Below the pieces are notes generated by a model. It was not told the DNA's origin, made no database searches, and was given only the letters and a program-made list of their open reading frames with translations. Source: an uncultured virus (IMG/VR IMGVR_UViG_3300031525_000002) (Duplodnaviria > Heunggongvirae > Uroviricota > Caudoviricetes). From it: a stretch of DNA of 64,000 nt. The translations under genes and the position numbers were made by a program. Where the stretch lies: the IMG/VR virus record IMGVR_UViG_3300031525_000002. One strand, given 5' to 3'. This document shows positions 60,888-61,046 of the stretch, one piece after another. Within the stretch, counting starts at the first letter, position 1, and each line of letters opens with the position of its first letter.

Positions 60888-61046
60888 TGACGAACCGAAA
60901 GCAACCCGCGTCTGCCGTGATTTGAACCCGGAACACGGAGGGGCGTGCAACTCCCCTGCTGGCTCTACCGCTCTCCGTTGCACGGAGGCTCCCGCTTTTT
61001 ACCTCGGGATTTTGAGCTACAGACGTGGGCTGCCTTCGATTCGTCA
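60888..61046 (-). ncRNA. tRNA-like structured RNA with extended acceptor stem and D-loop insertion
   Basis: 27-bp terminal stem; TAGCTCAA..GGTAGAGC; AGGGG/CCCCT arm; GGTTCAAAT T loop. Confidence 0.65.

What the first reader, a model, noticed from the sequence alone, without database searches (positions are those of the whole stretch)
60888..61046. tRNA-derived ncRNA with a 27-bp terminal stem and two hairpins inserted in the D loop
Seen on the minus strand: the ends pair over 27 bp with three G:U pairs and one mismatch, which supports this strand. Inside are TAGCTCAA-[about 40 nt with TCCCG/CGGGA and CTCCG-TGCAA-CGGAG hairpins]-GGTAGAGC, an AGGGG/CCCCT arm with a 9-nt loop containing GCA, and a CCGGG-TTCAAAT-CACGG T arm. 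The extended stem would block normal end processing. It sits between genes of the early region. Inference: an undescribed tRNA-mimic RNA or cis-regulatory element.
Basis: partly seen in the sequence, partly recalled or inferred. Interest (0 to 1): 0.7.

Follow-up and report, generated by a model that had tools for sequence, protein, structure and literature searches.

The report
Phage tRNA mimic with double-hairpin D-loop
A bacterial virus carries a tRNA-shaped RNA gene that almost certainly cannot read codons and has two extra hairpins built into its D loop; similar genes occur in many unrelated phages and look like an undescribed family of tRNA mimics whose job is unknown.

Summary
In detail: a 27-position terminal helix (23 Watson-Crick, 3 G:U, 1 mismatch; z = -6.7) encloses a tRNA core with a 42-nt, two-hairpin D-loop insert. 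No Rfam family matches.

Pattern scans of viral contigs found 11 further distinct phage RNAs with this layout. All 11 have a two-hairpin insert and a tetraloop-sealed anticodon arm, and 4 have a terminal helix of 20 bp or more. Across the 12 sequences, stems covary and the tertiary 15-48 pair is kept in 11. The carrier phages are mostly unrelated, with no shared neighbour gene and no Ro60.

The window copy is divergent. A model built without it scores it like an ordinary tRNA, so its membership rests on architecture (about 70%).

Best reading: a non-decoding tRNA-elbow mimic cut out of a phage transcript and acting in trans (0.4). Main rivals: an mRNA-processing signal, or a decaying copy. There are no expression data. 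This scan had earlier noted anticodon-sealed phage mimics on other DNA, but not this D-loop family.

The parts
60888..61046 (-). Whole tRNA-derived RNA element, filling the gap between two co-directional ORFs
   Evidence: identical in laid contigs
61027..61046 (-). 5' arm of the 20-bp outer helix; its first 3 nt are the stop codon of the upstream ORF; candidate RNase III substrate (inferred)
   Evidence: pair probabilities about 1.0 except the terminal pair
61020..61026 (-). Acceptor stem 5' strand (tRNA 1-7); A1.C72 mismatch at the junction with the outer helix
61012..61019 (-). U8-A15: connector, D-stem 5' strand, A14, A15 (Levitt partner of U48)
60990..61009 (-). D-loop insert hairpin 1 (5 bp, 10-nt purine-rich loop)
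   Evidence: (pair probability 0.77-0.89)
60973..60987 (-). D-loop insert hairpin 2 (5 bp, 5-nt loop ending in GCAA; most relatives have a GGCA or GGUA tetraloop)
   Evidence: (0.97-0.98)
60962..60969 (-). G18-G19 and D-stem 3' strand
60939..60957 (-). Anticodon-position arm: 5 bp plus a 9-nt loop that can close further; not a canonical 7-nt U33/R37 loop
60932..60936 (-). 5-nt variable loop with G46 and U48; overlaps the alternative T-stem 5' strand (60938-60934)
60915..60931 (-). T arm with canonical 7-nt T loop and one G.A mismatch in the stem
60888..60914 (-). Acceptor 3' strand (60914-60908) and 3' arm of the outer helix (60907-60888); no encoded CCA
61044..61592 (-). Upstream 182-aa Cys-rich, lipoprotein-like ORF of no known family (context)
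   Evidence: Atlas lead to Myxococcota clusters at 0.80-0.81, a lead only
60668..60865 (-). Downstream 65-aa ORF of no known family; ATG 22 nt after the helix, SD-like purine run at 60880-60875 (context)

Best explanation
The element is a divergent member of a phage family of tRNA-derived non-coding RNAs. These keep the tRNA core and elbow (D stem, G18-G19, 15-48 pair, G46, T loop), give up decoding (anticodon arm closed or malformed) and have no shared aminoacylation identity (free acceptor sequence, mostly no CCA). They carry two stacked hairpins at D-loop positions 16-17. Proposed working: (1) the RNA is transcribed inside the phage accessory-gene transcript (inferred from orientation); (2) it is cut out, by RNase III at the long helix in this copy or by RNase P and trimming in short-stem relatives (inferred); (3) the released stable RNA folds as an L-shaped tRNA mimic (supported by covariation in the family); (4) it acts in trans by presenting a tRNA elbow to a host tRNA-handling protein, most plausibly as a decoy or modulator of a tRNA-targeting defence or quality-control enzyme, with the added hairpins as an extra binding or steric module (inferred, not shown). 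Rough odds per step: the family is a selected RNA structure 0.9; the window copy belongs to it 0.7; it acts in trans rather than only marking a cut site about 0.6.
For: A search that fixed only a tetraloop anticodon arm gave 116 viral loci (85 distinct). Of the 54 that form cloverleaves, 43 have a 0-3 nt D-loop gap, 11 have 36-48 nt and none lies in between. All 11, plus the window copy, fold the insert into two tandem hairpins (12 of 12), against 4 of 40 other D-insert tRNA-likes and 366 of 1200 shuffles. Terminal helix of 15 bp or more: 5 of 12, against 0 of 40 other D-insert RNAs and 7 of 137 canonical tRNAs (0 of 39 viral). The Levitt pair is kept in 11 of 12 with a switch (7 A-U, 4 G-C) and G46 in 12 of 12; neither was a search criterion. 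Pair counts: 94.6% of cells paired, 14 of 22 pairs with changes on both sides, 0 of 500 shuffles. Insert hairpins show double changes in 4 of 5 and 3 of 3 pairs on a model-fitted alignment. An unseen relative, L530, scores 73.9 bits with the family model. The window insert's best match among 51 is family member L162/L248 (z 3.5; best-of-51 p = 38/1000). The 10 carrier records span 41-62% GC and are mostly unrelated (only G001 and G005 share more than 3 ORF pairs); 8 of 10 have no ARAGORN tRNA; no shared neighbour gene was found. Known parallels: YrlA mimics the tRNA elbow without anticodon loop or CCA (10.1101/312249); the Septu defence cuts tRNA outside the anticodon (PMC13096335 abstract).
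Against: Models built without the window copy score it at 37.1 and 36.4 bits, below a near-normal tRNA in the same window (39.6 and 41.0). Its anticodon arm is long, not a tetraloop; its T stem has a mismatch and a competing register is favoured. Single inserts fold only weakly better than shuffles (z -2.4 to +0.3). Acceptor pairing and the D- and T-loop motifs were imposed by the searches, so part of the conservation is circular. The 12 sequences are about 8-9 independent lineages. No partner protein, transcript or phenotype is known. The RNA is co-directional with flanking ORFs in 10 of 11 records, which fits a cis processing role equally well.
Confidence: 0.4

Rival explanations
1. Cis-acting processing or stability signal: the tRNA shape (RNase P) or long helix (RNase III) only marks a cut site in the phage polycistronic mRNA, and the released RNA has no job of its own.
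For: It fills an intergenic gap from a stop codon to 22 nt before the next ATG. It is co-directional with flanking ORFs in 10 of 11 records. RNase III substrates are about 22 bp and T7 early mRNA has five such sites (PMC3867540). A sealed anticodon and free acceptor sequence suit a pure signal; an earlier AI note proposed this for a similar mimic (unchecked).
Against: It does not explain conserved insert hairpins with GGCA/GGUA loops, nor why an elbow is kept inside long helices that remove the single-stranded leader. One copy (G003) lies opposite to its flanking genes and one (G004) heads a tRNA cluster.
Confidence: 0.25
2. The window copy is a decaying tRNA or decaying family member held inside an ordinary intergenic hairpin; only the outer helix matters.
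For: Inner region z = -1.29. Model score no better than ordinary tRNAs. T-stem and 1:72 mismatches, and a favoured alternative T register. No close relative found to test constraint.
Against: All core nucleotides, A15-U48 and G46 are intact. It shares two rare features with the family: two hairpins (4 of 40 in others) and a long helix (0 of 40). All four non-Watson-Crick positions in the helix are G:U or A.C.
Confidence: 0.2
3. A Yrn1-like Y RNA whose extended acceptor helix binds the host Ro60/Rsr protein.
For: Yrn1 has the same D-anticodon-T order with the stem between the D and T arms in the anticodon position (PMC4201824). The 5' arm has two near-misses to the GNCGAAN0-1G motif.
Against: The motif is absent from the 5' strand in 12 of 12. 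No TROVE gene in 10 of 10 carrier records, 4 of them complete. No Y RNA Rfam hit. The long helix is missing in 7 of 12.
Confidence: 0.06
4. A cis-regulatory switch (attenuator or translational control) for the downstream ORF, using the alternative pairing of the 7-nt repeat.
For: A repeated 7-mer allows two T-stem registers. The downstream SD-like site lies in a small hairpin.
Against: The repeat was not seen in relatives, downstream genes are unrelated, and the outer helix is predicted to form almost always.
Confidence: 0.05
5. A tRNA-Cys gene with a D-loop intron that is spliced out.
For: Removing 41 nt would leave a canonical D arm, and the loop contains GCA (sequence). Some other D-insert tRNAs keep 7-nt anticodon loops.
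Against: No bulge-helix-bulge brackets the insert in 12 of 12. The anticodon loop is 9 nt here and a tetraloop in 11 relatives, so the spliced product could not decode. No CCA and a 1:72 mismatch.
Confidence: 0.04

Closest known systems
Bacterial Y RNAs: YrlA and D. radiodurans Yrn1 (PMC4201824; 10.1101/312249)
   Same: tRNA-derived mimic that keeps the D/T elbow, lacks a decoding anticodon loop and a free CCA, and has a long terminal helix; also found in phages. Yrn1 has the same arm order.
   Different: YrlA is circularly permuted (T-AS-D), carries GNCGAAN0-1G and lies within 4 kb of a Ro60 gene. Here the order is unpermuted, the motif and Ro60 are absent, and the D loop holds two hairpins.
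Canonical and phage tRNA (Rfam RF00005)
   Same: Cloverleaf order, U8/A14, G18-G19, 15-48 pair, G46, T loop. Four of ten relatives tested score 30-34 bits against the tRNA model.
   Different: 36-48 nt D-loop insert, no 7-nt anticodon loop, acceptor of 8 to more than 20 bp, mostly no CCA. The window copy gives no tRNA hit.
allo-tRNAs and irregular E-loop tRNAs (Mukai et al., PMC5389517)
   Same: Non-canonical tRNA-like RNAs from soil, peat and phage sequences, some not used in translation and proposed as regulatory or linked to toxin-antitoxin systems.
   Different: Those have 8/4 or 9/3 branches, a long variable arm and an anticodon. This family has a 5-bp T stem, a 5-nt variable loop, a closed anticodon arm and a D-loop insert. 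Their supplementary figures were not seen.
RNase III processing stems of phage transcripts (T7 early mRNA; PMC3867540) and tRNA-like processing signals (t-elements; name recalled, also in an earlier AI note)
   Same: Long intergenic helix or tRNA-shaped unit inside a co-directional gene run.
   Different: Those need no conserved ornamented D loop; cleavage here is untested.
Anticodon-sealed phage tRNA look-alikes noted earlier in this scan (e1-5926062, e1-5947225)
   Same: Phage tRNA shape with a tetraloop in place of the anticodon loop; 43 such distinct sequences with a normal D loop were seen here.
   Different: No D-loop insert and no long terminal helix was reported for them.

Membership tests
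Decoding tRNA | 7-nt anticodon loop with U33 and purine 37 | tested here: not met
   9-nt loop in the window copy; tetraloop in 11 relatives
Decoding tRNA | 7-bp acceptor with unpaired discriminator and CCA (encoded or added) | tested here: not met
   A1.C72 mismatch, helix continues 20 bp, no CCA; processing could change this and was not testable
Decoding tRNA | Core tertiary nucleotides (U8, A14, 15-48, G18-G19, G46, T loop) | tested here: met
   15-48 and G46 were not search criteria
YrlA Y RNA | Circularly permuted order T - closed acceptor - D | tested here: not met
   order is D - anticodon arm - T
Bacterial Y RNA (YrlA/Yrn1) | GNCGAAN0-1G motif near the 5' end | tested here: not met
   0 of 12 in the 5' strand; present elsewhere in or near 4 of 12
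Bacterial Y RNA (YrlA/Yrn1) | Ro60/TROVE gene nearby | tested here: not met
   0 of 10 carrier records, 4 complete; the rest of the window's own record could not be searched
Bacterial Y RNA (YrlA/Yrn1) | Binding to Ro60/Rsr | not testable with these tools
   needs a biochemical assay
allo-tRNA / selC* (Mukai et al.) | 8/4 or 9/3 acceptor branch and long variable arm | tested here: not met
   5-bp T stem and 5-nt variable loop (definition)
Intron-containing tRNA (BHB type) | Bulge-helix-bulge at the exon-intron ends | tested here: not met
   0 of 12 bracket the insert
New phage double-hairpin D-loop family (this work) | Two tandem hairpins between positions 15 and 18 | tested here: met
New phage double-hairpin D-loop family (this work) | Short anticodon arm closed by a GNNA tetraloop | tested here: not met
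   window copy has a longer arm with a 9-nt loop
New phage double-hairpin D-loop family (this work) | Score with a family model built without the window copy clearly above ordinary tRNAs | tested here: not met
   37.1 and 36.4 bits against 39.6 and 41.0 for a near-normal tRNA; the model misaligned the insert; L530 reached 73.9
New phage double-hairpin D-loop family (this work) | Insert sequence similarity to a member | tested here: inconclusive
   best match L162/L248, p = 0.0035 alone and 38/1000 after best-of-51 correction

The most novel reading that the evidence does not exclude
Phages spread a stand-alone, protein-free anti-defence RNA: an anticodon-less tRNA elbow mimic with a two-hairpin appendage, released by RNase III or RNase P, that binds and jams host tRNA-cleaving or tRNA-sensing immune proteins. 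This would be an RNA counterpart of phage sponge proteins, unlike known phage tRNAs that work by resupplying decoding capacity.
Probability: 0.2. Interest if true: 0.87.

Novelty: new variant of a known kind. Interest (0 to 1): 0.62.

Why it matters
Standard tRNA finders miss these genes: ARAGORN called none of 11 tested, and Rfam misses the window copy, so a conserved phage RNA class has gone unannotated. It shows that the tRNA D loop can carry 40-nt structured appendages while the tertiary core stays under selection. It also gives a small, synthesisable set of RNAs for testing whether phages use non-decoding tRNA mimics against host tRNA-targeting defences or to punctuate their transcripts.

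Tried and rejected
No whole genome is held and the record is not searchable, so about half of this phage was not examined.

blastn against GenBank phages gave only 22-34 nt chance hits. Relatives of two nearby proteins in viral contigs: one 15-residue low-complexity hit and none. No RNA holder listed among public runs; this says nothing about expression.

Of the 123 loci were dropped as a second tRNA starting in the gap, 9 as no cloverleaf, and 17 kept. The relaxed viral scan also hit its limit (120 loci; 27 and 46 matches dropped, 48 kept). The viral census for 32-56 nt inserts was complete: 114 loci, 62 second-tRNA, 12 no cloverleaf, 1 unparsed, 39 kept (33 distinct); none resembled the window copy closely.

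The GTDB scan gave 47 loci and no member. That pattern would miss the window copy and 3 of 11 relatives, so 'phage-restricted' is provisional.

ARAGORN at a lowered threshold was pure noise. Covariance models R1 and R2 do not separate the window copy from ordinary tRNAs. Protein Atlas hits for both flanking proteins were below the reliable range, so the host (Myxococcota-like by the look of the upstream protein, recalled) is not established.

Y RNA, allo-tRNA, BHB intron and att-site or assembly artefact were considered. The first three fail tests in the membership table, the artefact reading fails, and no duplicated tRNA end was seen.

Supplements of PMC10690425: 3 of 6 listed files searched without a hit, 3 not searched, 3 more unreadable. 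The family could be among its 8495 candidates.

Full report
Observation. The ends pair over 27 positions (23 Watson-Crick, 3 G:U, 1 A.C), the longest such stem in the window. The whole folds at z = -6.72 with 0 of 200 shuffles as good. The single mismatch sits at tRNA position 1:72, splitting the helix into a 20-bp outer part and an acceptor stem. Inside are U8-A15, a 42-nt insert with two hairpins, G18-G19 and the D stem, an arm with a 9-nt loop, a 5-nt variable loop and a T arm with one mismatch; no CCA is encoded. The inner part alone is not unusually stable (z = -1.29), and a 7-nt repeat lets a second T-stem register compete. ARAGORN and Rfam do not call it. The same letters appear in contigs of other runs, so it is not an assembly error; the best holder may be the source sample.

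Context. The window is phage DNA: endolysin, tail, HNH and PAPS-reductase families occur among 77 proteins scanned. The element runs from the stop codon of a 182-aa ORF to 22 nt before a 65-aa ORF, both on the same strand and of no known family. All 24 listed runs are labelled peat metagenome, possibly one campaign. The host is not established (lead only). The phage also has a tmRNA, a PTH2-like gene and three more cloverleaves about 20 kb away, none with a 7-nt anticodon loop.

Relatives. Pattern scans showed that tRNA-like genes with long D-loop inserts recur in phages. A complete viral census for 32-56 nt inserts gave 39 of 114 loci, 33 distinct, most with non-canonical anticodon loops. A search that specified only a tetraloop-closed anticodon arm gave 85 distinct sequences. 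Of the 54 cloverleaves among them, 43 have a normal D loop and 11 have a 36-48 nt insert, with nothing in between. That pattern was designed after I had seen some members, but it does not select on insert structure. These 11 and the window copy all fold the insert into two tandem hairpins, against 4 of 40 other D-insert RNAs (3 of 19 of similar length) and 366 of 1200 shuffles. The second hairpin has a GGCA or GGUA loop in 9 of 12. Terminal helices of 20-27 bp occur in 5 of 12 (two of them near-identical), against 0 of 40 other D-insert RNAs and 1 of 137 canonical tRNAs at 20 bp or more.

Evidence of selection on structure. On the 12-sequence alignment 94.6% of cells pair and 14 of 22 pairs change on both sides, with 0 of 500 shuffles as high. 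Acceptor pairing was a selection criterion, so this is partly circular. The 15-48 pair and G46 were not criteria: 11 of 12 keep the pair, 7 as A-U and 4 as G-C, with a switch between the related L195 and L245, and 12 of 12 keep G46. On a model-fitted alignment of 12 relatives the insert hairpins show double changes in 4 of 5 and 3 of 3 pairs, a count that leans towards the model. The acceptor sequence is free. Short-stem members tend to show 8 bp, an unpaired purine and CC or CT; one of the 12 has CCA.

Does the window copy belong? Against: models built without it give 37.1 and 36.4 bits, below a near-normal tRNA in the window, while the unseen L530 gets 73.9; its anticodon arm is longer and not a tetraloop. 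For: it has both rare features (two hairpins, long helix), the intact core, and an insert whose best match among 51 is L162/L248 (p = 0.0035, or 38/1000 after correction). I put membership at about 0.7. It belongs in any case to the wider class of phage D-loop-insert tRNA-likes.

Distribution. The ten carrier records are 7-47 kb with 41-62% GC. Only G001 and G005 share more than 3 ORF pairs, and G005 and G006 have near-identical RNAs but no shared ORF pair. Eight of ten have no ARAGORN tRNA. Neighbours are unrelated accessory, nin-like, terminase, integrase or polymerase genes (34 of 140 neighbour ORFs scanned). The RNA is co-directional with flanking ORFs in 10 of 11 cases, counting the window (mechanical ORFs, my judgement). 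No TROVE gene was found in 10 of 10 records, 4 complete, with the control positive in 2 of 14 genomes. None of 47 GTDB pattern hits is a member, but that pattern is narrow.

Mechanism. Supported by sequence: tRNA-like core under selection in the family, loss of decoding, no common synthetase identity, no dedicated protein partner nearby. Inferred: co-transcription with accessory genes; release by RNase III at the long helix (idealised substrate 22 bp; T7 early mRNA has five sites; PMC3867540 passages) or by RNase P in short-stem members; action in trans through the elbow, the surface that YrlA also conserves (10.1101/312249 passages). A defence-related target is plausible because host systems cut tRNAs, Septu in the variable loop (PMC13096335 abstract), but nothing here shows it. 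I give this chain 0.40, a pure processing signal 0.25, a decaying copy 0.20, Y RNA 0.06, a cis switch 0.05 and an intron 0.04.

Comparison with what is known. It works most like a Y RNA-type tRNA mimic but is not a Y RNA: unpermuted order, no GNCGAAN0-1G in the 5' strand (0 of 12) and no Ro60 nearby (PMC4201824 passages). It is not an allo-tRNA (PMC5389517 passages and section 16) and has no bulge-helix-bulge. Rfam gives only weak tRNA hits for relatives. Eight literature searches aimed at this RNA and passages of PMC7609411, PMC10424219 and PMC10690425 gave no description of it; other papers were seen only as search listings. Part of the supplements of PMC10690425 could not be searched, the supplementary figures of PMC5389517 were not seen, and subscription journals are not covered. 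Earlier AI notes of this scan describe anticodon-sealed phage mimics without the insert and structured insertions in other tRNA loops; none matched this sequence.

Verdict. A real, well-formed feature, probably a divergent member of an apparently undescribed, covarying family of non-decoding phage tRNA mimics with a double-hairpin D loop. Function is untested. New variant of a known kind; interest 0.62.

Noticed in passing
window 41064-41336 (-): Three tandem cloverleaves, none with a 7-nt anticodon loop: a 6-nt loop with CCA (41260-41336), an extended arm capped by a CUUG tetraloop with an atypical T loop that ARAGORN and Rfam miss (41178-41259), and a 9-nt loop around GCA (41064-41139). With the element studied, all four tRNA-shaped genes in the window look non-decoding or altered.
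   Followed up: partly
window 41344-42596 (-): PTH2-like peptidyl-tRNA hydrolase fragment (Pfam E 0.0014, below cut-off), tmRNA and an HNH endonuclease directly upstream of the odd tRNA cluster: a ribosome-rescue kit.
   Followed up: partly
window 56034-58197 (-): A 545-aa TnpB/Cas12f-like ORF (weak, below cut-off; by eye the RuvC-I and -II acidic residues seem replaced), followed by an N-terminal Cas1 fragment and three 37-nt CRISPR-like repeats with two spacers. Possibly a compact nuclease-dead type V-like module or a remnant.
   Followed up: partly
L005, L032, L063, L095, L116, L120 and others (metagenome contigs): Apparent tRNA-within-tRNA genes: the 5' half of one tRNA is interrupted near the anticodon by a short helix enclosing a complete second tRNA. 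Many such loci; organism not determined.
   Followed up: no
L125, L128, L131, L141, L144, L149, L151, L160, L164, L170, L173 (viral contigs): A second group of phage tRNA-likes with a single hairpin in the D loop and GAAA-containing anticodon loops, many ending in ACCA-like tails, mostly in large AT-rich phage contigs.
   Followed up: no
L004, L023, L030, L067, L080, L179: tRNA genes with 26-40 nt D-loop inserts that keep a near-normal anticodon arm (Lys, Thr, Gln and others), so D-loop appendages may also occur on decoding tRNAs.
   Followed up: no
L318, L324-L338, L350-L428 (viral contigs): A frequent tRNA-like gene with a normal D loop and a very short, poorly paired anticodon arm, in many related phages.
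   Followed up: no
L437:6932-8646 (G003): Reverse transcriptase plus bAvd-like gene (diversity-generating retroelement) about 700 bp from a family member, on the opposite strand; not seen near other members.
   Followed up: no
L245, L250, L255 terminal helices: The long terminal helices of two otherwise distant lineages share a 9-nt sequence and its complement; not present in the window copy.
   Followed up: no
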